The notes beneath the pieces are model-generated. The model saw nothing but the letters and a program-made list of their open reading frames with translations, ran no database searches and had not been told where the DNA came from. The position numbers were made by a program, and so were the translations under genes. From Gammaproteobacteria bacterium (GTDB lineage Bacteria > Pseudomonadota > Gammaproteobacteria > Eutrophobiales > Eutrophobiaceae), in assembly GCA_038922795.1 (NCBI GenBank), contig JBCKWI010000003.1, positions 5,118 through 69,117 on the forward strand: a stretch of 64,000 nt of DNA, in the 5' to 3' direction. Of this stretch, positions 52,698 through 61,740 are shown in pieces. Position 1 is the first letter of the stretch. Every line of letters starts with the position of its first letter.

Positions 52698-54878
52698 GTG
52701 AAATCATCAATCATTTATACAATATTAACAGCCACAGGCTTATTAATCTTCCCATACAGTCATATCGTCTCCGCGGAAGAAATCGCGGCTGATGAGGCTT
52801 CCACTAAGAAAACCGCCAAACAAGCGGAAAAACTCGAAGACATTACCGTACAGGCGACCCGTGTCGATAAATCACTTTATGAGATCCCGGCCTCCGTCGG
52901 GTACGTCGGCAAGGATGATATCCAGTTTGGCCGCCAGCAGCTTGGCCTGGATGAATCGCTTATCAAGATCCCCGGTCTGTGGATGCCTAACCGTTATAAC
53001 TTCAACCAGGATCTGAGTATCTCTATCCGGGGGTTCGGGAAACGATCCACTTTCGGGATCCGTGGTGTCAAAATTTATGTGGATGGTATCCCGAATACTC
53101 TGCCTGACGGCCAGGGGGGTATTGATACTATAGATATTGGATCAACCGATCGTATGGAAGTCATCCGTGGCCCCGCCTCTTCACTCTATGGCGCGGCTGC
53201 AGGTGGCGTGATCAACATCTATACTGAAGATGGCCCGGTGGATACGCCGTTTATTGAAGGCCGTGCGACCATGGGTTCCCATGACTTCAGTAAATTCCAG
53301 CTTAAAACCGGCGGGCAGAAAGACCGGCTGAACTATCTGGTGAATCTGTCCCGGTTTAATCTTGATGGTTATCGGGACCACAGCAAAATTGAGAATACCT
53401 TATTAAATTCAAAATTTCGCTACGATATCGATGCCACCTCCGATTTTACATTAACGGTCTCTGTCCTGGATAAACCCATTGCCGATGATCCGGGCGGATT
53501 ATGTAAAACCAGTACTGTAGGGTCTATCTGCACCGGCGTTACTCCGGATCGCACAGCTGCTCAGCGTAATAATACCGGTGCCAGATTCGATGCCGGCGAG
53601 ACGGTGGAACAGCAACAATTCGGGCTCCTCTACCGGAAAAGCATCGGCGCCAAACATGAACTTACCGCGCGTAACTATTATCAGTTTCGTGATTTTCATG
53701 CAAAATTACCAAATGGTCCTCCTGTAACACCAAGCGGTGGAATGATCGAACTGGATCGTTTTTTTCTGGGCGGGGGATTGCAAAATGCCTACACGGACAC
53801 CTTTTTCGGTCACCAAAACCGCCTCACCGTGGGCGTTGATGTGGACTCGCAAATGGATGAACGTAAAAATTTCGATAATCTGCTTGGCGCGATGGGACCA
53901 TTAGCCCTGGATCAGGATGAAGATGTATTCAGCTGGGGGGTTTTTCTCCAGAACGAATTCAGCATCACGGACAACCTGGAATTGACTCTTGGTGTGCGCT
54001 ATGACGAAGTTGAATTCGAGTTTACGGATTATTTCCTGACGGATTTTGATCAATCGGGTGCGGCGAAATTCAGTGAATGGAGCCCACAGGCCGGTCTGCT
54101 GTGGAAGGCGCACGCAGCCATCAATCTTTTCGGCAACGTCTCGACTTCATTCGAAACACCCAGTACCCGTGAATTTGCAGCGCCGGCCGGGCCCGGAGGT
54201 TTTAACACAGCGCTCACTGCGCAAACCTCGATCAATTATGAAATCGGCGTGAAAGGATTATTGCCCGGCAGGACCAGTTATGAATTATCCATCTTCAGGA
54301 TTGATACCCAGGATGAGTTGCTTCCGGCAGGAACTAATGACGGTGGATCGGTGTTTTTTACCAATACCGGAGAAACGGAACGCAATGGTGTTGAGGCGGG
54401 GTTGATCTTCCGGCCGTTACCCGGTCTGGATGTTACCCTCAACTACACCTACTCTGATTTTGAATTCACGAAGCTGGTTGTCCCTGGTCTAGGTGGTGGA
54501 TCATTTGCCGGTGAAAAAATACCGGGTATCCCTGAGCAAATGGGTTTCGCCGAGATCGCCTATTTTGCGCCTTCCGGTTTTTATGGAATTCTGGATTTTC
54601 AATATGTAGACAAGGTATACACCAACAATGCATACAGGAGAAATTCCGGTGCGTTGGTTCCCCAGGGCGATGCCGCTGATGACTATACCCTGCTGAATTT
54701 CAGGATGGGCTATACCACGAATATTGGTGATACTGTATTCACGCCATTTTTCGGGATTAATAATATTACCAATCAGAAATATATCGGGAATATCCGGGTC
54801 AATGAGGGCAATGTGCGCTTTTTCGAGCCCGCACCGGAACTGAATGTGTTTGCAGGGATATCGCTGACTTTCCGCTAA
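52698..54878 (+). CDS. TonB-dependent outer-membrane receptor
   Basis: Signal peptide, TonB box (EDITVQATR), plug domain and a long beta-barrel. GTG start with an RBS (aggggga). 726 aa. Confidence 0.88.
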   Translation: MKSSIIYTILTATGLLIFPYSHIVSAEEIAADEASTKKTAKQAEKLEDITVQATRVDKSLYEIPASVGYVGKDDIQFGRQQLGLDESLIKIPGLWMPNRYNFNQDLSISIRGFGKRSTFGIRGVKIYVDGIPNTLPDGQGGIDTIDIGSTDRMEVIRGPASSLYGAAAGGVINIYTEDGPVDTPFIEGRATMGSHDFSKFQLKTGGQKDRLNYLVNLSRFNLDGYRDHSKIENTLLNSKFRYDIDATSDFTLTVSVLDKPIADDPGGLCKTSTVGSICTGVTPDRTAAQRNNTGARFDAGETVEQQQFGLLYRKSIGAKHELTARNYYQFRDFHAKLPNGPPVTPSGGMIELDRFFLGGGLQNAYTDTFFGHQNRLTVGVDVDSQMDERKNFDNLLGAMGPLALDQDEDVFSWGVFLQNEFSITDNLELTLGVRYDEVEFEFTDYFLTDFDQSGAAKFSEWSPQAGLLWKAHAAINLFGNVSTSFETPSTREFAAPAGPGGFNTALTAQTSINYEIGVKGLLPGRTSYELSIFRIDTQDELLPAGTNDGGSVFFTNTGETERNGVEAGLIFRPLPGLDVTLNYTYSDFEFTKLVVPGLGGGSFAGEKIPGIPEQMGFAEIAYFAPSGFYGILDFQYVDKVYTNNAYRRNSGALVPQGDAADDYTLLNFRMGYTTNIGDTVFTPFFGINNITNQKYIGNIRVNEGNVRFFEPAPELNVFAGISLTFR

Positions 54879-55038: not shown

Positions 55039-55539
55039 CTAGCCATATCTGAAACCAAGAATTTCCAGTTCCTGATCACCGGCAGGTTTTTTCCAGACTA
55101 CAATATCTCCCGTTTGTTTACCGATCAGTTCGCGTGCCAACGGTGACACCCAACTGAGCAGACCCCGGTCAGGATCTGCCTCATCTTCACCGACTATTGT
55201 ATAGGAGTACTGTTGATCATTTTCATCCAGCAGATTCACCGTGGCGCCAAAACGGATATCAATTGCAGTCTGTGATGTAACCTCTACCGGAATGGCACAC
55301 TGGATACGTTTTTCCAGATAGCGCAGATCCGCTTCAATTTTTTTCAACCGGTTTTTGGAAGCGAGCTCATCTTCATTTAATTTCAGCTCCCGGTAATACT
55401 TTCTCAATACCTCAAGGTTGTCTTTTAACCTCTTGAGGCCTGCACTGGTAATATAATTAGGATACTCGCTCTGCGGCCGTTCAATGGCATCATCATCTGC
55501 CTGGTCACCATCCAGTTCTTTTACAAATGCACGGCTCAT
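55039..55539 (-). CDS. GreA/GreB-family transcription factor paralog (divergent, Rnk/GreB-like)
   Basis: The C-terminal FKBP-like Gre domain is present (NLLDENDQQYSYTIVGEDEADPDRGLLSWVSPLARELIGKQTGDIVV), as is an N-terminal coiled coil. The start is taken at MSRAFVKELDG, because the upstream extension lies in the repeat cluster. Confidence 0.7.
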   Translation of the reverse strand: MSRAFVKELDGDQADDDAIERPQSEYPNYITSAGLKRLKDNLEVLRKYYRELKLNEDELASKNRLKKIEADLRYLEKRIQCAIPVEVTSQTAIDIRFGATVNLLDENDQQYSYTIVGEDEADPDRGLLSWVSPLARELIGKQTGDIVVWKKPAGDQELEILGFRYG

Positions 55540-55609
55540 AAAATGATTCCTCTGAATATTATTAGAACCTGTCTCAAAATTAGTTTCCCGCTCTTTTGAC
55601 GGAAGCAAT

Positions 55610-55750
55610 AACCCACTGCGCCTTCCCCCTGGCAGGGGGAACGACTCCATGGATGGAGTCGGTAGAGCAACGCAGGACGCCTACAGGGAGCGTGATGAAC
55701 TTGAACTCTACCTGAGGTTCCGGGCCTGTGCAGGAGATAAAGTCTCACGC
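55610..55750. repeat. family B palindromic repeat cluster flanking the IS remnant (left side)
   Basis: Units ccccctggcagggggaacgactccatggatggagtcggtagagcaacgcaggacgcctacagggagcg are read directly. Confidence 0.75.
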
Positions 55751-55810
55751 TTCAATATTTCTCAACAGACTGAATGATATCCAAGTCCTTCCCCAGGGGA
55801 AAGAGGCTGA

Positions 55811-56825
55811 ATGAGCAAGGGGGGTCACGAGATGATGACAATAATTGGTATTGATGTAGGCAAGGCGAAACTGGACTGCCTGTGGTTAAAAGACCCGGCC
55901 ACTGGCAAAGTGAAGACCAAGGTCTTTGCCAACACGCCGGACGGCCGCCTGGCGTTAATGGGGTGGACTGAACAACAGACACCAGTAGCACTGAATGCGG
56001 TCCATTTTATGATGGGGGCGACCGGGGTCTATCATGAGGCCTTGGCCTATACGCTGTACCGGGCGGGGGCGAAGGTGTCCGTGGTGGATCCGGCACAGGG
56101 GCGGGATGATGCCAAGGGCCTGGGGTCACGCACCAGGACCGACAAGAAGGACAGCTGGGTACTGGCCCGCTTGGGTGCGACACAAGGGACCCGGTTATGG
56201 CAGCCTGAACCTGACGAGGTGCGTAAGCTTGCGCCTCCGCGCCCGCATTGAGGCGGTAGAACAGGCTATTCGGCGCGAGATGAATCGTTTGGAGAAAGCG
56301 GCGATCGCACCGGTGTCCGAAGAGATATTAACCTCGATTCATACGGTTCTGGAACAACTTGAAAAAGAGAAAAAACGGCTGGAAGGGTTAATCAACCGGC
56401 ACATTGATCAACACCCCGGCCTGAAACGTGATCAGCAATGACTGGAGGGCATCCCCGGGGCCGGGCCGGTGATTGCCCGCGACCTGATGGCCGTGATCCG
56501 CAGCCGGTCATTGACTTCGGCGTCGCAGTGTGCGGCCACCTTGGGACGGGTCCCGATCCAGCATGAATCCGGTTCTAGTGTGCGCGGCAGACCGCCTATG
56601 TCCAAAGCCGGGAGTGCGACGATACGGGCCAAATTATAGATGGCGGCAGTCGTGTCCATTCAGCACAACCCGGATATTAAACGGCCCTATCAACGCTTGC
56701 TGAAAAAAGGAAAAGTTAAAATGAGTGCACTGGGTGCAGCCATGCGCAAGCGGGTGCATATTTGTTTTGGTGTATTAAAACACCAGACACCCTGTCAAGC
56801 ACAAACCCTGTCAATGGATTTGTGA
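55811..56825 (+). pseudogene. IS110-family transposase, disrupted by at least 3 frameshifts
   Basis: The N-terminal DEDD domain is MMTIIGIDVGKAKLD...GATGVYHEALAYTLYRAGAKVSVVDPAQ. The continuation lies in other frames: 56034-56441 (...LEKEKKRLEGLINRHIDQHPGLK), 56440-56640 (LEGIPGAGPVIARDLMAVI...) and 56640-56825 (...YQRLLKKGKVKMSALGAAMRKRVHICFGVLKHQTP). Confidence 0.8.
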
Positions 56826-56829
56826 TAGA

Positions 56830-57200
56830 TGGAGGAAGATGGTATCTCCTGCATCCTTGTAGTCGTGTCCTCGGCTTTGGCCTCCTCGATCGCTGTTCGA
56901 AAACCTGTTCCTGACGTTTTCTCGGTCTCTGTTCCAGACTCGACTCTACCGATTCCTTCCATGGAATCGTACCGCCTACATTCCCTGTAGGCGTCCCGAC
57001 GCGATTCTACCTCCTCCATCCCTGGAGTCGTGCGTTGCTCTCGGTCTCCGCTCCCGGCTCGACTCTACCGATTACATCCTTGTAATCGTACCGCCTATGT
57101 CCCTATAGGCGTCTCGCGACTTTTCCCACTTCCTGTGGGTCGCCTACGCCAGAATGACAGCATGTAGAAACTTGTAACTTAATCAGAACATCTTTAATTA
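56830..57200. repeat. family B palindromic repeat cluster with the terminal module agaatgacagcatgtagaaacttgtaacttaatcagaac (right side of the IS remnant)
   Basis: Direct reading. It contains ctcggtctccgctcccggctcgactctaccgatta, the reverse complement of the unit at 10450 and 18750. Confidence 0.8.
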
Positions 57201-57280
57201 GTACCACCTTTCCATATATAATTTCTTATATATTCTATCAATCATCTCTATCACCTATCTGTAGAGTTAAGCTACATGTC

Positions 57281-57538
57281 ATGAAACGGCAACGCGCAAC
57301 AAAAACTCCAATCATCCGGAAATCTACAGGTAATGTTTTCGAAGATATAGGTTTCGCCAAACCAGAAGCGGGACGTCTCGCCATGCTTTCCACACTAGCG
57401 ATCGAAGTCGAAAAGTACATCAAAGACCATAATCTTACGCAGGCAGAAGCGGCTGCACGATTTGGCGTTACCCAACCACGCATCAGCAATCTTTTAAACG
57501 GCAAGTTCCATTTGTTCAGCATTGATATGCTGATATAA
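57281..57538 (+). CDS. XRE-family HTH antitoxin (HigA-like), apparently orphan
   Basis: SGNVFEDIGF...LTQAEAAARFGVTQPRISNLLNGKFHLFSIDML is the typical HigA/XRE antidote pattern. No RelE/HigB-like ORF is present upstream, where the repeat cluster lies instead. Confidence 0.7.
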   Translation: MKRQRATKTPIIRKSTGNVFEDIGFAKPEAGRLAMLSTLAIEVEKYIKDHNLTQAEAAARFGVTQPRISNLLNGKFHLFSIDMLI

Positions 57539-57632
57539 ATGTTGCTGCGCGTGGGTATCCAGGTAAAGATAGGTGTCAAAAAAGCGGCGTGATTTATCCC
57601 TAACGATATTAATTTGCTGAGATAACTCTCCT

Positions 57633-58160
57633 ATGAACAAGAAACACAGTCAGTTAAAAAGCATCGTAATCTCGATCCTTGCTGCAGTCCTTTATGTGAA
57701 TTATGCCATTGCCCATCCAGTCGACGAACATCGTCAACCGGACAAGGTGCAGATCATCCTGCTGGCCGATAACACACCACCTCCGGTCAATGATGATGGC
57801 ATGGTAACAATGGGTGGGTTGAGCGGGCCGAAGGAGAGTAAAGGCATCGCTTCGATAGATCCGATGGGTATAATTGATCTGGGTGCAGAATTTCCGGCCA
57901 TGAGTGGCCGCCAGTTACGCGCAAGAATATTCACCATTGAACCCGGCGGTATCGTCGGCATTCACACGCACGAACAACGACCGGGTTATGCCTTCATTAT
58001 CAGCGGCAGCATTGTGGAACATCGTAATGATAACCCGGAGCCGCTTGTTCGCACCGCCGGTGATATTGCTATAGAGAAAGACGGTGTCACCCACTGGTGG
58101 GAAAATACCTTCGAAGAACCGGTGAAAGCGCTGGTCGTGGATATCTTCACACCGGAATAG
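57633..58160 (+). CDS. secreted cupin-domain protein
   Basis: Signal peptide plus a cupin motif (GIHTHEQRPGYAFIISG...G). 175 aa. Confidence 0.7.
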   Translation: MNKKHSQLKSIVISILAAVLYVNYAIAHPVDEHRQPDKVQIILLADNTPPPVNDDGMVTMGGLSGPKESKGIASIDPMGIIDLGAEFPAMSGRQLRARIFTIEPGGIVGIHTHEQRPGYAFIISGSIVEHRNDNPEPLVRTAGDIAIEKDGVTHWWENTFEEPVKALVVDIFTPE

Positions 58161-58234
58161 CTTTTTAGAAACCAGAAAACTTAATTAATAAGTGTGAATC
58201 TGATACCTGCCAGTTTATTGGAGAATACTGCGAT

Positions 58235-58507
58235 ATGGATTTTGAGTGGGATTCGTTAAAAGCCCGTACTAATGAAAGCAAGCACGGGGTCTCCTTCTTT
58301 GAGGCATGCGAAGTATTTGATGATAAGCTTTCCTCAACAGTTAGAGATCCTGATAATTCACTGGATGAGGATAGATATCTGATTTTTGGAATATCAAAAA
58401 GTGGCAATTATCTGGTTGTATCCTAGACTGAACGTGTTGACCGAATTAGACTGAGTTCAGCCCGGCAGATGACCCTGCGAGAACGCAAAGCCTATGAACA
58501 GCGATAA
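58235..58507 (+). pseudogene. brnT: BrnT-like (DUF497) toxin with an in-frame amber stop at 58427-58429
   Basis: MDFEWDSLKARTNESKHGVSFFEACEVFDD...LIFGISKSGNYLVVS-TAG-TERVDRIRLSSARQMTLRERKAYEQR*. The BrnT C-terminus continues in the same frame after the stop. Confidence 0.65.
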
Positions 58508-58697
58508 AGATACCCTTAGAGATGAATATCCGGAAGAACTGATCAAATCAGGTGTCCGTGGAAAATACACAGAGAGCTACCGCAAAAGTACAAACATCGT
58601 TCTGATTGATCCGGATCTGTACAAACTATTCCCCGATTCGGAAGCCGTTAACCGTGCACTTCGCGAGTATGCTTCAACAAGACGAACGGCAACTTAA
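58494..58697 (+). CDS. brnA: BrnA-like (CopG/RHH) antitoxin
   Basis: The start overlaps the brnT 3' end. The C-terminal ...PDSEAVNRALREYAS resembles BrnA. Confidence 0.6.
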   Translation: MNSDKDTLRDEYPEELIKSGVRGKYTESYRKSTNIVLIDPDLYKLFPDSEAVNRALREYASTRRTAT

Positions 58698-58794
58698 TAT
58701 CGCCATCGAGAAAGCCGGTATCACCCACTGTTGGGAAAATACCTTCGATGAACCGGTGAAGGCGTTAGTAGTGGATATCTTCAAACCGGAGTAA
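58693..58794 (+). pseudogene. diverged duplicate of the last about 32 codons of the cupin gene
   Basis: IAIEKAGITHCWENTFDEPVKALVVDIFKPE* versus the cupin C-terminus IAIEKDGVTHWWENTFEEPVKALVVDIFTPE*. About 85% nt identity with 58063-58160. Confidence 0.6.
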
Positions 58795-58850
58795 CCAGAG
58801 TCAATTGGTCTTGATTCTTTTATTTTGTTTGATCAAAGAGGTAGATTTAC

Positions 58851-60056
58851 ATGTCTGAAAGCTGGGCAGAAAGGCAAAGACACACGAACCGTTTAGCTAG
58901 GCGTCTTGCTGATTATTTGTTTTCGAGACATAAAATTACTGCTCGTCAGATTTACGGATTATCAAAAATTGCTTGGATAACGAATAGTTATGAAGGAGAA
59001 GCAGCAGCATATATTGCTAGCACAAAAATACCCGCTTTAGGTGATGTGTTCGGAAAAGATTTTACAAACAAATCGTTGGAGGAAGTAGCTAGCATAATTG
59101 CTTCAGAAACAGATGATGAATCTCTGATTGATTTGATAAAAGGTCATTCTGGTTTTACGAATTTTTACAAGGCATACAGAAATAGCGTCTTTGCTTGGAT
59201 TGAGAATAATCATTCAGTGCTATTACCTTTATATAAAGCTGCATTTAGTTCTGAGAGCGATGAAGCAAGATTAAAAATAGTTTCAACTATAGCCAAATTA
59301 CCAGGTATTCCAAAGGCTAATCATCCTGAGCAACAAATGAGGCCAGAATACTTTCTAACACCAGCATTTTTTATGCTTGACCCTGAAATTCGTTTCCCAC
59401 TTATAAACGGGAACGAATGGGTACACAATCTTCTCAGCGATCTGAACGTGGCGGATTCAGATCTTATCTCACAATATAAAGCAATGGTGCAATTGTATGG
59501 AAATGGAGGAATTACAGATGCAGCAGATCTCGATCAAGCGGGAAGAGATATGCCAGATTTCTTAAATACAAATGAACGAACGGCAACAAAAGGACTCCTT
59601 GAGAAAAAGAACTCTACAGAAAATGGAGCACTTCCATTAAAGGATGAAGCAGACGTTGAGGCCATAAGGGAAGCCGGAACAGTAACTCATCGGCGAATAC
59701 ATAATCATCTCACTAATAATTTAAAGAAATCACTCAAAAAATATACTCTCCTAGAGGGCAATAATCATTCTTGCATGTTTGATGTATTGGTGAAGCAATA
59801 CGATAATAATAGAAATGATTTGCTAATTGAGGTAAAAAGTTCTATCGATTCCCCTCAGATTAGAATGGCTGTAGGTCAGCTATTTGACTATTGGTTTTCC
59901 TTGAAAGGAGACGAAGAACCCCATATGGCTGTGTTATTACCTAATCGGCCAAGCAAAGATGTTGCAGACTTTCTTAAATGGATGGATATTGGATTAATGT
60001 GGTTTGATAACTATCAACTTTGTACGGATGATAATTGGCTTAAACATCTTGCTTGA
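58851..60056 (+). CDS. hypothetical protein with a C-terminal RecB-type PD-(D/E)xK nuclease motif set; candidate single-gene defence nuclease
   Basis: AT-rich 401-aa ORF. The C-terminus reads ...HSCMFDVLV(K)...NDLLIEVKSS...VGQLFDYW, which fits D / ExK / QxxxY. The N-terminal about 280 aa is unrecognised. Confidence 0.55.
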   Translation: MSESWAERQRHTNRLARRLADYLFSRHKITARQIYGLSKIAWITNSYEGEAAAYIASTKIPALGDVFGKDFTNKSLEEVASIIASETDDESLIDLIKGHSGFTNFYKAYRNSVFAWIENNHSVLLPLYKAAFSSESDEARLKIVSTIAKLPGIPKANHPEQQMRPEYFLTPAFFMLDPEIRFPLINGNEWVHNLLSDLNVADSDLISQYKAMVQLYGNGGITDAADLDQAGRDMPDFLNTNERTATKGLLEKKNSTENGALPLKDEADVEAIREAGTVTHRRIHNHLTNNLKKSLKKYTLLEGNNHSCMFDVLVKQYDNNRNDLLIEVKSSIDSPQIRMAVGQLFDYWFSLKGDEEPHMAVLLPNRPSKDVADFLKWMDIGLMWFDNYQLCTDDNWLKHLA

Positions 60057-60546
60057 ATTTATATTCAATCTCTATCACGAAATAACGACTCACCTGTCCT
60101 TCAGCTTTTACAACAATTTCATCTTTCCGTGATTTGCCCAATAGCGCTTTACTCATCGGCGAATCAATACTGATGTAATTCCTGTCCGGATCAATTTCAT
60201 CTGCTCCGACAATACGATAAGTGTTCTCTACACCTTCTTCGTTTTCGAGGGTAACGATGGCGCCGAAATACACTCGGCTGGTATCGCCAACTTCGGAAAC
60301 AATCTTTAACTTCGGCATCCTCTGTTGCAAATAACGAATACGCCTGTCGATCTCGCGCAATTCTTTTTTGCGGTAGATGTATTCGGCATTCTCGGATCGA
60401 TCGCCTTCCGCTGCGGCTGCTGTCAAAGCTTTGGTCACATCTCTGCGTCGAACCCACAGACCACTCAGTTCATTTTCCAGGTGTTGATAACCTTCAGGAG
60501 TTATGTAGGGTGATGAAGCAGTTGGAGGTGGACGCCAGCGTGTCAT
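60040..60546 (-). CDS. greB: transcription elongation factor GreB
   Basis: ITPEGYQHLENEL...GDRSENAEYIYRKKELREIDRRIRYLQQRM matches GreB closely. Start taken at MTRWRPP (ATG 60546). Confidence 0.85.
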   Translation of the reverse strand: MTRWRPPPTASSPYITPEGYQHLENELSGLWVRRRDVTKALTAAAAEGDRSENAEYIYRKKELREIDRRIRYLQQRMPKLKIVSEVGDTSRVYFGAIVTLENEEGVENTYRIVGADEIDPDRNYISIDSPMSKALLGKSRKDEIVVKAEGQVSRYFVIEIEYKFKQDV

Positions 60547-60582
60547 ACAAATATTAAAGAGATACAAGATAAATTAAATGTG

Positions 60583-60648
60583 TCATTTCGAGCGAAGCGA
60601 GAAATCTGAAGTTAAAACCATGAGATTTCTCGCTTCGCTCGAAATGAC
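60583..60648. repeat. perfect long-arm inverted repeat (tgtcatttcgagcgaagcgagaaatct ... agatttctcgcttcgctcgaaatgaca), family C; probable bidirectional terminator / MITE-like element
   Basis: Direct reading. Arms are about 27 nt and the loop about 12 nt. Confidence 0.85.
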
Positions 60649-60672
60649 AAATCACTACCCTGAAGAGTTTAC

Positions 60673-61740
60673 TTATTCCAATCCCAGTGGATTTTCCGGA
60701 TCGATGCCGTCGCGGAACGGTTTGCGTCGATCGATGTGGGTGAGCTGATAGACCTTGCCGATCCAGTTGTTGATGACAGCCTCGGCGCTGTCATGCCAGG
60801 TATTGTCCAATGCTGGCACAATAATATCTTCCGGAAATTCCGGCGGTTGCTTGCCTGACTTGCGCGCAGCGATGTTCCATTCCTGGTATTCCTCAAAAAT
60901 CGCAGTAGACCGCAGGCTGAGATAATTTTCCGGCACAGGCGGATAATCATTGATCTCGCCACGGATGTAGCGGCCGACTTCGCGTTTGTATTCCTTCAGC
61001 AGACTGATGGCATCATATTCCGGGTGGCCCTGGAAAAAGACAATGCGAAAACCGTCTTCACTGGTCGCAAGGTGTACGCCAGCTACATCACTCTCCACCA
61101 GGATTTTCAATTTTGCTGCTTCAAACTGTTGCCTGCTGATCTCATTAAAGCGTGAATGCGGCACATCAAAGCGGGTATTCACACCGGAGATCAATGGATG
61201 ATATTGATTGACCACTTTATGCGAATAGACACCCCAACGCTTGGCCGGCATGGGTTTGCGTTTCTGCTGATAACGAAACTGCAACACGGCGTGTGTTGCC
61301 AGACACGAACATAAAGTCGATGTCACGTTTTCATACGCCCAGTTAATGATCTCGATCAGCGGGTTCCAGAATAACTGTTCAGACAGTTCCGGACTGGTCA
61401 CATTAGCGCCGGTAATGATGAGCGCATCGAGTCCCTCTTCCTTGATCTGCTCGAAGGTCTTGTAATATTGTCCAATATGCGTCTGGGCTTCGGGACCGCG
61501 CTCCAGTTCCTTGAGTGAAAACGGATGCACATAGAATTGCGCGATCTGATTGCTCTCTCCGACCAGCCGGAAAAATTGCCGTTCGGTCGCTTCCAGCGCG
61601 GCATCCGGCATCATGTTCAAAAGCCCGATGTGCAGTTCGCGGATGTCCTGATGCAAGGCGTGATCACGCCCGATGATGGTCTCACCCTCTTCCTGAAGCC
61701 GCACAAAACTCGGCAACGATGTATTGGCAACCAGTGGCAT
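60673..61740 (-). CDS. metA: homoserine O-succinyl/acetyl-transferase (MetA family)
   Basis: It aligns to the MetA family along its length (LLNMMPD; IITGA; VTSTLCSCLA catalytic Cys; FQGHPEYD). Confidence 0.88.
   Translation of the reverse strand: MPLVANTSLPSFVRLQEEGETIIGRDHALHQDIRELHIGLLNMMPDAALEATERQFFRLVGESNQIAQFYVHPFSLKELERGPEAQTHIGQYYKTFEQIKEEGLDALIITGANVTSPELSEQLFWNPLIEIINWAYENVTSTLCSCLATHAVLQFRYQQKRKPMPAKRWGVYSHKVVNQYHPLISGVNTRFDVPHSRFNEISRQQFEAAKLKILVESDVAGVHLATSEDGFRIVFFQGHPEYDAISLLKEYKREVGRYIRGEINDYPPVPENYLSLRSTAIFEEYQEWNIAARKSGKQPPEFPEDIIVPALDNTWHDSAEAVINNWIGKVYQLTHIDRRKPFRDGIDPENPLGLE

What the first reader, a model, noticed from the sequence alone, without database searches (positions are those of the whole stretch)
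58161..58794. brnT-brnA cassette inserted at the 3' end of a cupin gene with a diverged 3' duplication. brnT carries an in-frame amber codon
The intact cupin gene ends at 58160. A BrnT/BrnA module follows. Then the last about 100 bp of the cupin gene reappear (85% identity), fused to the brnA stop. This suggests the module travelled with a fragment of a homologous cupin gene and integrated by recombination.

BrnT is interrupted by TAG at codon 65 yet continues in frame with a recognisable C-terminus. This means recent inactivation or programmed read-through.
Basis: seen in the sequence. Interest (0 to 1): 0.55.

Follow-up and report, generated by a model that had tools for sequence, protein, structure and literature searches.

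The report
Decaying toxin-antitoxin cassette inside cupin gene
A small toxin-antitoxin gene pair, of a type that travels elsewhere as an integron gene cassette, sits inside the 3' end of a cupin gene that stays intact because a spare 3' end came with the insert; the structure is old and shared by related bacteria, the toxin has a fresh nonsense mutation, and overall this is ordinary toxin-antitoxin decay.

Summary
The cupin gene (57633-58160) is followed by brnT (58235-58507), which has an in-frame TAG at codon 64 (58424-58426). Then come an overlapping 67-aa partner gene (58494-58697) and a 97-nt copy of the cupin 3' end (58697-58793, 87% identical) that abuts the partner's stop codon.

The arrangement is not recent or private. 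The same partner-stop|cupin-fragment junction occurs in at least four other metagenomic lineages.

The cupin genes are significantly mosaic: the 3' half groups with lineages that carry the module, and the 5' end groups with lineages that lack it. The module therefore spreads by homologous recombination with a crossover inside cupin.

Elsewhere, homologous brnT/partner pairs are integron gene cassettes bounded by GTTAGGTTGCC and GGCAACCTAAC. Sister lineages carry a frameshifted integron integrase 22 nt after the downstream fragment. The junction falls at the AA|C position of the cassette's R'' box, and the attC site is missing.

The amber replaces a near-invariant Tyr codon that reads TAT in all seven relatives checked, so it is a recent inactivation or a consensus error, not read-through. 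Toxins are lost repeatedly at this locus while antitoxins persist. The "BrnA" label is not supported by any profile library.

The parts
57633..58160 (+). Intact cupin gene (175 aa, probable signal peptide, TAG stop). It is mosaic: the 5' ~110-150 nt resemble lineages without the module, and the 3' part resembles lineages with it.
   Evidence: Pfam Cupin_2. 95 homologues found. Mosaic test p<=0.0005.
58063..58160 (+). Repeat copy A (V_A). This is the functional last 32 codons plus the TAG stop of the cupin gene, and it travels with the module.
   Evidence: the repeat finder family D1. It is 93% identical to copy A of L012, against 77.5% for the cupin 5' part.
58161..58234 (+). Spacer between the cupin stop and brnT. 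It contains a degenerate cassette left end (GTTTATT at 58213-58219, against GTTAGGTTGCC in cassettes) and the GGAG ribosome-binding site at 58220-58223.
   Evidence: Comparison with cassette copies L013, L014, L016, L122 and L124. No attC-like fold (z=-0.54). No sigma-70-like promoter on the + strand.
58235..58507 (+). brnT (DUF497/BrnT family RNase toxin) carrying an in-frame amber. It encodes a 63-aa truncated product.
   Evidence: Pfam PF04365, 79.3 bits with Tyr restored. PDB 7vd7_A, E=3.8e-13. Translation.
58424..58426 (+). TAG at codon 64. It replaces a near-invariant Tyr whose codon is TAT in all seven relatives read at DNA level.
58494..58697 (+). Intact 67-aa partner gene ('brnA'), overlapping brnT by 14 nt. 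It is a presumed antitoxin. It matches no profile family and is under strong purifying selection.
   Evidence: No Pfam, NCBIfam, PADLOC or PDB hit. 1787 homologues, with no Pfam domain and only 'hypothetical protein' names among the best 120 listed. dN/dS 0.05-0.10.
58688..58697 (+). GGCAACTTAA, a remnant of the cassette R'' (inverse core) box that overlaps the partner's stop codon. Cassette homology ends here, at the AA|C position.
   Evidence: Cassette copies read GGCAACCTAA|C followed by an attC site.
58697..58794 (+). Repeat copy B (V_B), the displaced cupin 3' fragment. It covers 31 full codons plus a TAA stop, lies in the +1 frame relative to the partner gene, and has an invariant Trp changed to Cys.
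   Evidence: No attC-like fold.
58795..58850 (+). Flank after copy B. It shows weak similarity to the native flank downstream of cupin in genomes without the module.
   Evidence: Shares TTGATTCTTT and GA[AG]TCAAT with L001 (shuffle p=0.03). Shares GGAGTAAccaga with L023.

Best explanation
This is an old, immobilised and now decaying toxin-antitoxin cassette embedded 97 nt before the end of a cupin gene.

Shown:
1. brnT plus a conserved 67-aa partner gene form a unit that occurs elsewhere as an integron gene cassette. Its left end is G|TTAGGTTGCC, about 26 nt before the ATG. Its right end is GGCAACCTAAC, overlapping the partner's stop codon and followed by a 61-125-nt attC site.
2. In the window and at least four related lineages this unit lacks its attC. 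The partner's stop codon is joined directly to the last 97 nt of a cupin gene (copy B). A complete cupin gene with its own version of those 97 nt (copy A) lies upstream.
3. The cupin 3' half, copy A and the module move together between lineages by homologous recombination, with a crossover inside cupin.

Inferred:
4. Copy B is the displaced original gene end. Because it is homologous to the 3' end of any plain cupin gene, it can act as the right-hand homology arm, with the cupin body as the left arm. The module can then be copied into a naive cupin gene without destroying it. This also keeps copy B from decaying neutrally. Gene conversion from copy A contributes as well, and is visible in L010-L012.
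5. The founding junction lies at the AA|C cleavage position of the cassette R'' box, and repeat copy A begins right after the G of a GAT (GWT) motif. This is compatible with an off-target reaction by an integron integrase. It is also compatible with microhomology-mediated illegitimate joining.
6. The TAG at codon 64 is a recent single-base change (TAT to TAG). It removes the C-terminal third of BrnT, including the equivalent of the Glu78 residue needed for RNase activity. The antitoxin-like partner remains intact. This is the usual order of toxin-antitoxin decay.
For: Cassette nature:
- Five independent contexts share the GTTAGGTTGCC left boundary and the GGC[AG]ACCTAA right end.
- L013 and L014 share only the stretch between GTTAGGT and GTTAGAT.
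- Identity between L016 and L017 begins at a GTTGAGG core that follows a hairpin with z=-4.4.
- L122/L123 carry a 61-nt ACCTAAC...GTTAGGG attC after the partner gene, and an attC end immediately before brnT.
- A frameshifted integrase whose best hit is TIGR02249, integron integrase (E=3.9e-38, against XerD at 1.3e-17), ends 22 nt after copy B in L009, L011 and L012.

Shared junction:
- TAA|TATCG in the window and L012, TAA|CATCG in L034 and L126, TAG|TACCG in L027.
- Every locus examined that lacks the partner gene also lacks copy B.

Recombination:
- Max-chi-square breakpoints have p<=0.0005 for both the window and L011. For L011, 51 of 51 informative sites to the right of the breakpoint match L012.

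Copy B is a relic that gets refreshed:
- It carries Trp to Cys in the window, an in-frame stop in L009 and HWW to YCR in L027.
- Its dN/dS is 0.16-0.22, far below 1.
- In L010-L012 copies A and B are identical over positions 15-97 but differ at positions 5-14 and in the stop codon.

Amber codon:
- Tyr64 is near-invariant, and every invariant residue downstream of the stop is retained.
- dN/dS after the stop (0.17) equals that before it.
- The codon is TAT in all seven relatives read.
- TAG is used as an ordinary stop here, including by the cupin gene itself.
- There is no tRNA gene in the window.
- Glu78 is required for RNase activity (PMC5086665, citing Heaton 2012).

Repeated toxin loss with antitoxin retention:
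- brnT is deleted in L034 and L027, hicA is deleted in L027, and the Gp49 toxin is absent next to the HTH_37 gene in the window.
Against: - No attC, no clean R' box and no integrase remain in the window itself, so cassette ancestry rests on homologues.
- I did not run a dedicated attC or integron finder.
- The flank similarities used to call copy B 'native' are weak (p about 0.03-0.05).
- All relatives are short metagenomic contigs, so the phylogeny of the host lineages is unknown. Vertical descent with repeated loss cannot be fully separated from horizontal spread.
- The cupin-side site fits the attG consensus only loosely: GAT in some lineages, GAC in others.
- Top-strand or R''-side integrase reactions were at background level in the published assay.
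- The partner protein has no detectable similarity to BrnA, and structure prediction gave pLDDT about 53.
- The TAG could be a consensus error in a metagenome-assembled genome.
Confidence: 0.6

Rival explanations
1. The founding junction was made by an integron integrase acting off-target. Two routes are possible. In the first, the R''-side (top-strand) AA|C of the cassette attC recombined with a site in cupin. In the second, a canonical attC x attG (G|WT) event used a circle that had been excised 'outside the insertion point' and so carried the cupin 3' end, and the attC hairpin was lost afterwards.
For: - The junction is exactly at the R'' AA|C position.
- Repeat copy A starts immediately after the G of GAT at 58062-58064, which fits the 5'-GWT-3' attG consensus.
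- An intI pseudogene lies 22 nt from copy B in sister lineages.
- Cassette insertion into genomes, and excision at nearby genomic sites, have been shown experimentally (bioRxiv 10.1101/2022.09.11.507474).
Against: - Top-strand delivery gave background frequency in that study.
- The canonical route needs a second step that deletes the attC.
- Some lineages have GAC rather than GAT at the site.
- GWT occurs about once every 32 nt per strand, so that match is weak.
- Both coincidences were noticed after the fact.
Confidence: 0.4
2. The founding junction arose by homology-facilitated illegitimate recombination. Incoming DNA of the form [cupin-flank-cassette] was anchored by cupin homology, and its far end joined at a 1-2-nt microhomology 97 nt upstream of the resident stop codon, which duplicated that segment. 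No integrase was involved.
For: - Only 1-2 nt (A-C, or T.A) are shared at the joint.
- The left side is demonstrably resolved by homologous recombination in later transfers.
- Selection to keep the antitoxin intact would favour joints at or after its stop codon.
Against: A random joint falling within +/-1 nt of the R'' cleavage position has a chance of roughly 1 in 50 to 1 in 100, given attC lengths of 61-125 nt. The neighbouring integron integrase would then be a coincidence.
Confidence: 0.4
3. The two cupin ends are the attL and attR sites of a site-specific integrative island, a CIME-like integrase-less remnant. The island would target the cupin 3' end and carry a replacement end.
For: - The geometry matches: an intact gene with an element-supplied end, plus a displaced direct-repeat fragment.
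- A tyrosine recombinase gene lies next to copy B in L009, L011 and L012.
Against: - That recombinase is an integron integrase lying outside the repeat-bounded segment.
- The repeats are 97 nt of diverged coding sequence with no more than 16 nt of identity in the window.
- No third copy and no other cargo were found at this site with the same repeat.
Confidence: 0.05
4. The TAG is not a real inactivation. It is either programmed read-through or suppression giving full-length BrnT, or a sequencing or consensus error in the assembly.
For: - The downstream frame is perfectly preserved.
- The window comes from a single 73-kb NCBI contig with no second copy on record.
Against: - Against read-through: no homologue has a stop at this position, and the 120 best homologues listed are 89-91 aa. 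TAG terminates the cupin gene 264 nt upstream. No suppressor tRNA is present in the window.
- Against error: a second in-frame nonsense codon sits 900 nt away in the HTH_37 gene, and toxin loss recurs at this locus, so decay is plausible. An error still cannot be excluded without reads.
Confidence: 0.12

Closest known systems
[quoted passage not shown] 2012, as summarised in PMC5086665)
   Same: The toxin matches Pfam BrnT_toxin (PF04365) over its full length and PDB 7vd7_A. The operon has the toxin first, with an overlapping small downstream gene. The conserved N-terminal EWD..K residues and the C-terminal ISAR...ER motif are present.
   Different: The toxin is cut by an amber at codon 64. 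The 67-aa partner does not match BrnA_antitoxin (PF14384) or any other profile, and belongs to a large unannotated family (1787 homologues found).
Integron gene cassettes carrying toxin-antitoxin pairs, and cassettes inserted outside integrons (SALIN / attC x attG; Loot et al., bioRxiv 10.1101/2022.09.11.507474)
   Same: Homologous pairs sit in cassette arrays bounded by GTTRRRY and RYYYAAC cores with folded attC sites. An integron integrase pseudogene adjoins the locus in sister lineages. The module lies in a chromosomal gene, away from attI.
   Different: The window copy has no attC and only a degenerate left core. The junction is on the R'' side rather than at R'. A 97-nt piece of the target gene is duplicated, which simple cassette insertion does not produce.
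Integrative elements that insert into the 3' end of a gene and supply a replacement end, such as tRNA/tmRNA-targeting islands and ICESt1/CIME elements at the fda gene (from my own knowledge, not checked here)
   Same: The target gene stays intact, and its displaced 3' end remains as a direct repeat on the far side of the insert.
   Different: There is no integrase inside the element. The repeats are long and diverged and lack an identical core. Movement is by homologous recombination rather than site-specific excision and integration.
Toxin-antitoxin decay with orphan antitoxins
   Same: The toxin is inactivated first, by a nonsense mutation here and by deletions in L034 and L027. The antitoxin remains intact and under purifying selection.
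   Different: Nothing substantial. This is the expected pattern.

Membership tests
BrnT toxin (Pfam PF04365 / DUF497) | Full-length match to the family profile above the curated cut-off | tested here: met
   79.3 bits against a cut-off of 34.5, covering profile positions 1-77 of 77, with Tyr restored at codon 64. PDB 7vd7_A, E=3.8e-13.
BrnT toxin (Pfam PF04365 / DUF497) | Uninterrupted reading frame encoding the C-terminal catalytic residue (equivalent of Glu78) | tested here: not met
   TAG at 58424-58426 ends the product at residue 63. Glu78 is needed for RNase activity. The equivalence of E83 here to Glu78 is inferred.
BrnA antitoxin (Pfam PF14384) | Match to the BrnA_antitoxin or CopG-type profile | tested here: not met
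   No Pfam hit even at E<=1. No NCBIfam, PADLOC or PDB hit. hhalign against a PF14384-bearing protein from L125 gave probability 0.3%.
BrnA antitoxin (Pfam PF14384) | Small gene immediately downstream of, and overlapping, brnT and conserved together with it | tested here: met
   A 14-nt overlap. The same 67-aa gene follows brnT in all ten contexts examined.
BrnA antitoxin (Pfam PF14384) | Ribbon-helix-helix DNA-binding fold | tested here: inconclusive
   AlphaFold models had pLDDT 52-53. Two C-terminal helices follow the NIVLID segment, but confidence is too low for a fold search.
Integron gene cassette | attC site (R''-L''...L'-R' imperfect hairpin) at the 3' end | tested here: not met
   In the window only GGCAACTTAA remains, and the following 97 nt are cupin sequence with no attC-like fold (z=-0.95). 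My own core-pair scan found none in 55500-60800.
Integron gene cassette | Homologous units bounded by GTTRRRY / RYYYAAC cores in cassette arrays | tested here: met
   L013, L014, L016-19, L122-123 and L124-125.
Integron (platform) | Integron integrase gene next to the array | tested here: not met
   tblastn found no intI remnant in the window. Only sister lineages L009, L011 and L012 have a frameshifted intI.
Programmed stop-codon read-through / recoding | Stop codon conserved at the same position among homologues | tested here: not met
   None of the 17 aligned homologues has a stop there, and none of the 7 DNA copies does; all read TAT. The 120 best homologues are 89-91 aa.
Site-specific integrative island (attL/attR) | Recombinase gene inside the repeat-bounded segment, and an identical core within the repeats | tested here: not met
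   The 634-nt unit holds only brnT and its partner gene. The longest identical run is 16 nt, with differences spread across the whole repeat.

The most novel reading that the evidence does not exclude
The 97-nt duplication may be the footprint of an integron integrase acting off-target. A genome-inserted toxin-antitoxin cassette would have been excised at a nearby GWT site inside the cupin gene, taking the gene's 3' end with it. This 'neo-cassette' would then have re-entered cupin genes. If so, this is a natural example of integrase-driven capture of chromosomal DNA into a cassette-like unit. The unit would then persist by using its host gene as recombination arms.
Probability: 0.2. Interest if true: 0.6.

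Novelty: new member of a known kind. Interest (0 to 1): 0.3.

Why it matters
Mostly it does not matter much: a toxin gene with a nonsense codon beside an intact antitoxin is routine.

Three modest points are worth recording:
- It is a clear natural case of a selfish toxin-antitoxin cassette lodged inside a conserved gene without breaking it. The cassette carries a spare gene end and leaves the old end as a second homology arm, which explains how it hops between related genomes by homologous recombination.
- The junction at the attC R'' box, beside an integron integrase pseudogene, offers a testable natural candidate for the off-target cassette insertion and excision described experimentally.
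- The 67-aa partner of this BrnT subfamily is a large, strongly conserved family with no profile annotation.

Tried and rejected
Searches that gave nothing:
- A scan of species-representative genomes with the cupin protein found no relatives.
- A plasmid DNA search found nothing.
- An exact look-up of the window's own cupin protein found no record.
- A scan of species-representative genomes with MetA returned only distant Gammaproteobacteria genomes, mostly MAGs (66-79% identity), with no cupin or greB synteny. All comparative evidence therefore comes from metagenomic contigs.

Ideas rejected:
- attL/attR of an integrative island. I rejected this once the neighbouring recombinase proved to be an integron integrase lying outside the repeats.
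- The cupin 3' end acting as an attC. It is conserved coding sequence across distant homologues and does not fold like an attC.
- Copy B read through from the partner gene as a fusion. It is in the +1 frame.

Tests that were weak or uninformative:
- My regex-and-folding attC scan was strict. It found a site in L122 and a candidate upstream in L013, and missed the L017 site seen by eye, so its negative result in the window is weak.
- Similarity of the spacer after copy A to the native cupin-greB intergenic region of L006 rests on one 9-mer (p=0.046), and I do not rely on it.
- Two structure predictions of the 67-aa partner gave pLDDT about 53, so no fold search was run.
- The promoter scan found no + strand promoter in the spacer, and Rfam found nothing.
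- The 401-aa ORF had no PADLOC, Pfam or PDB hits.
Full report
**Observation**

The region reads as the first stage described, with small corrections.
- A 175-aa cupin gene occupies 57633-58160 and ends in TAG. It matches Pfam Cupin_2 at E=7.7e-11.
- After a 74-nt spacer, brnT starts at 58235. Its frame is broken by TAG at 58424-58426. This is codon 64, not codon 65 or position 58427.
- The frame then continues for 26 codons to TAA at 58505-58507. With Tyr placed at the stop, the 90-aa protein matches Pfam BrnT_toxin over the whole profile (79.3 bits, cut-off 34.5). It also matches a solved toxin, PDB 7vd7_A (E=3.8e-13).
- A 67-aa gene at 58494-58697 overlaps brnT by 14 nt.
- Directly at its TAA begins a 97-nt copy of the cupin 3' end. 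Copy A is 58063-58159 and copy B is 58697-58793, with 87% identity and BLAST E=6.5e-29.
- Homology stops at the stop codons, TAG in A and TAA in B. Copy B is in the +1 frame relative to the 67-aa gene, so it is not a fusion.

**Context in relatives**

- The window's cupin protein is on record once, from a 73-kb NCBI contig. The closest relatives, at 70-82% identity, are all metagenomic.
- Their contigs show a conserved backbone: aconitase, a variable slot, cupin, a second variable slot, then greB and metA on the minus strand.
- In L006/L008 cupin is followed by greB after 33 nt. In other lineages the slot holds unrelated small genes.
- MetA places the organism among uncultured Gammaproteobacteria, with a best hit of 79% among species-representative genomes. 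Those genomes lack this synteny.

**The arrangement is shared, not private**

- The closest BrnT homologue (P0096, 86% identity, intact at 90 aa) lies on contigs L009-L012. They have exactly the same order: cupin, brnT, 67-aa gene, cupin fragment. They are about 84% identical in DNA to the window.
- A metagenome scan with a cupin alignment added two more lineages.
  - L034 reads cupin, hicA, hicB, 67-aa gene, fragment.
  - L027 reads cupin, hicB, 67-aa gene, fragment.
- A look-up of the 67-aa protein added L126/L127. There the 67-aa gene is followed by only the first ~17 nt of the fragment and then greB.
- The joint is at the same nucleotide in all of them: TAA|TATCG, TAA|CATCG or TAG|TACCG.
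- Every examined locus that lacks the 67-aa gene has a single cupin end.
- I conclude that the junction arose once and is old. Assembly artefact is excluded by its recurrence in independent JGI and ENA assemblies.

**The module is an integron-cassette derivative**

- Homologous brnT/67-aa pairs in unrelated contexts begin to resemble each other exactly at GTTAGGTTGCC, about 26 nt before the ATG. They end with its reverse complement GGCAACCTAAC, whose TAA is the partner's stop codon. These contexts are L013, L014, L016-19, L122-123 and L124-125.
- These sequences have the form of R' (GTTRRRY) and R'' (RYYYAAC) core sites.
- L013 and L014 share only the stretch from GTTAGGT to a downstream GTTAGAT.
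- Identity between L016 and L017 starts at a GTTGAGG core preceded in L017 by a textbook hairpin (z=-4.4).
- In L122/L123 the pair sits among other small same-strand toxin-antitoxin genes. It is followed by a 61-nt ACCTAAC...GTTAGGG site that folds as one imperfect hairpin. It is preceded by the end of the neighbouring cassette's site.
- In L009, L011 and L012 the ORF fragments right after copy B, on the minus strand, assemble into a frameshifted tyrosine recombinase. Its best family is TIGR02249, integron integrase (E=3.9e-38, against XerD at 1.3e-17). It has the characteristic C-terminus ...YTHVLNRGGRGVKSPIDNF, and its stop codon is 22 nt from copy B.
- In the window the left core is degenerate (GTTTATT, 58213-58219). 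The right end is GGCAACTTAA (58688-58697), there is no attC, and tblastn finds no intI remnant.

**Spread by homologous recombination**

- Against L012, the window is 77.5% identical in the cupin 5' part. It is 93% identical in copy A, 86% in brnT, 90% in the partner gene and 82.5% in copy B.
- Segment by segment, the first 100 nt of the window's cupin are 80-82% identical to module-free L001, L020 and L025, but only 54% identical to L012. Positions 300-528 are 86-93% identical to L012 and 78-85% identical to L001.
- A max-chi-square test on informative sites places a breakpoint near gene position 112-150 (p<=0.0005).
- L011 and L012 come from what appears to be the same sampled community. They are identical from cupin position ~257 through brnT, the partner gene, copy B and intI to the contig end. 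They are only 52-63% identical in the first 200 nt of cupin and have different upstream genes. All 51 informative sites right of the breakpoint match L012.
- So the cupin 3' half with copy A and the module moves as a block between lineages, with a crossover inside cupin. The travelling cupin piece is the upstream one, however.

**What copy B is**

- It carries disabling changes: an invariant Trp changed to Cys in the window, an in-frame stop in L009, and HWW changed to YCR in L027.
- Between L009 and L012 it differs at 6 of 98 positions, while copy A differs at none. It is therefore an unconstrained relic.
- Yet across lineages its dN/dS is only 0.16-0.22. Of the 14 differences between A and B in the window, including the stop-codon base, 10 are at third codon positions. 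Most of its divergence therefore accumulated while it was part of a working gene.
- Two processes explain this.
  - The first is gene conversion from copy A. In L010-L012, A and B are identical over positions 15-97 but keep the copy-specific states at positions 5-14 and in the stop codon.
  - The second is inferred. When the block enters a genome with a plain cupin gene, the right-hand crossover falls within copy B, so its distal part and the downstream flank are the recipient's own.
- Consistent with the second process, what follows copy B differs by lineage: intI in L012, a 401-aa ORF in the window, other ORFs in L034, and greB in L126.
- The window's copy B and its flank share GGAGTAAccaga with the native end in L023, and TTGATTCTTT with L001. 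This flank evidence is weak (p about 0.03).
- On this reading the duplication gives the module two homology arms within one host gene and a spare gene end, so insertion does not disrupt cupin.

**Origin of the junction (unresolved)**

- Cassette homology ends at ...CTAA|, the AA|C cleavage position of the R'' box. Repeat copy A begins immediately after the G of GAT at 58062-58064, which fits the 5'-GWT-3' consensus of genomic attG sites.
- Loot et al. showed that integron integrases insert cassettes into genomes at such sites. They also showed that inserted cassettes can be excised at nearby genomic sites. Such an excision could generate a circle carrying the cupin end.
- Against this, top-strand reactions were at background frequency in their assay. 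The canonical route would require later loss of the attC. Some lineages have GAC at the site, and both coincidences were recognised after the fact.
- Homology-facilitated illegitimate joining at a 1-2-nt microhomology explains the same structure without an integrase.
- I rate the two about equally.

**The amber codon**

- Tyr64 is near-invariant in the family. The codon is TAT in all seven relatives read at DNA level, so the change is a single T-to-G substitution.
- The 120 best homologues listed are all 89-91 aa.
- Every invariant residue downstream of the stop is retained. dN/dS after the stop (0.17) equals that before it. The mutation is therefore recent.
- TAG is a normal terminator here. 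It ends the cupin gene itself and 5 of 34 long ORFs. No tRNA gene lies in the window.
- The 63-aa product lacks the conserved ISAR...ER segment. By inference this includes the equivalent of Glu78, one of five residues needed for RNase activity in B. abortus BrnT (PMC5086665).
- Programmed read-through is therefore not supported. A consensus error cannot be excluded without reads.
- The mutation fits a pattern at this locus.
  - brnT is deleted in L034 and L027.
  - hicA is deleted in L027.
  - The HTH_37 (HigA-like) gene upstream in the window has lost its Gp49 toxin partner and itself carries an in-frame TAA.
- The 67-aa partner gene stays intact everywhere, with dN/dS 0.05-0.10.

**The 'BrnA' label**

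- The 67-aa protein matches no Pfam, NCBIfam, PADLOC or PDB entry. hhalign shows no relation to a PF14384-bearing protein. Its predicted structure is unreliable.
- It belongs to a large, highly conserved family: 1787 homologues were found, and among the 120 best listed none has a Pfam domain and the only names given are 'hypothetical protein'.
- Its role as antitoxin is inferred from its invariable, overlapping position after brnT.

**Verdict**

The object is a new instance of known kinds: a BrnT-family toxin-antitoxin module, an integron cassette stranded outside an array, a gene-end duplication at an insertion site, and toxin-first decay. Interest is modest. The most interesting open reading is an integrase-made 'neo-cassette' containing host DNA, and it remains unproven.

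Noticed in passing
window 57281-57592 (+): The HTH_37 (HigA-like) antitoxin gene has an in-frame TAA at 57536-57538, where homologues read GAA. The ORF is therefore 85 aa instead of 103. Its Gp49/HigB-like toxin partner, present in L001/L002, is absent. DNA similarity to L001 begins only at about 57300.
   Followed up: partly
window 55811-56825: Fragments of an IS110-family transposase lie in a GC-rich patch (about 58% GC, against 45-49% around it). The DEDD N-terminal domain is at 55811-56251 and a C-terminal piece is at 56640-56825. They sit where relatives have aconitase-side synteny, so the upstream backbone is broken here.
   Followed up: partly
window 58851-60056 (+): A 401-aa ORF with 37% GC fills the variable slot between copy B and greB and overlaps the greB 3' end by 17 nt. 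It has no Pfam, NCBIfam, PADLOC or PDB match. By eye its C-terminus (FDVLV...LLIEVKS) looks like a PD-(D/E)xK nuclease motif.
   Followed up: partly
window 55039-55650 (-): This is a second GreA/GreB-family gene (202 aa, with an N-terminal extension), in addition to greB at 60040-60567. A PqqU-like TonB-dependent receptor lies next to it at 52698-54878.
   Followed up: no
L034 237-648 and L027 582-839: In two lineages a hicAB pair occupies the place of brnT between cupin and the 67-aa gene. L027 has lost hicA as well, leaving two orphan antitoxin genes in a row.
   Followed up: partly
L014 2823-2902 and 3468-3575: Here the brnT/partner cassette sits between oppC and oppD. It is preceded by an 8-nt tandem repeat array (GCAAGGGG-like). 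Its attC is interrupted by a ~109-nt insertion with terminal inverted repeats (CTAGTGCA...TGCACTAG) that is absent from L013.
   Followed up: no
L126 230-273 and L127 263-306: In this lineage only the first ~17 nt of copy B remain after the 67-aa gene, and greB follows directly. A deletion has removed the rest of the fragment and whatever lay between it and greB.
   Followed up: partly
L012 3860-3914: Beyond the 5' end of the intI pseudogene the contig ends in a GTTG...CAAC hairpin (GTTGCTGCTGAAGT/ACTTCCAGCAGTCAAC) with bulged bases. Its polarity is opposite to that of an attC, and I could not interpret it.
   Followed up: no
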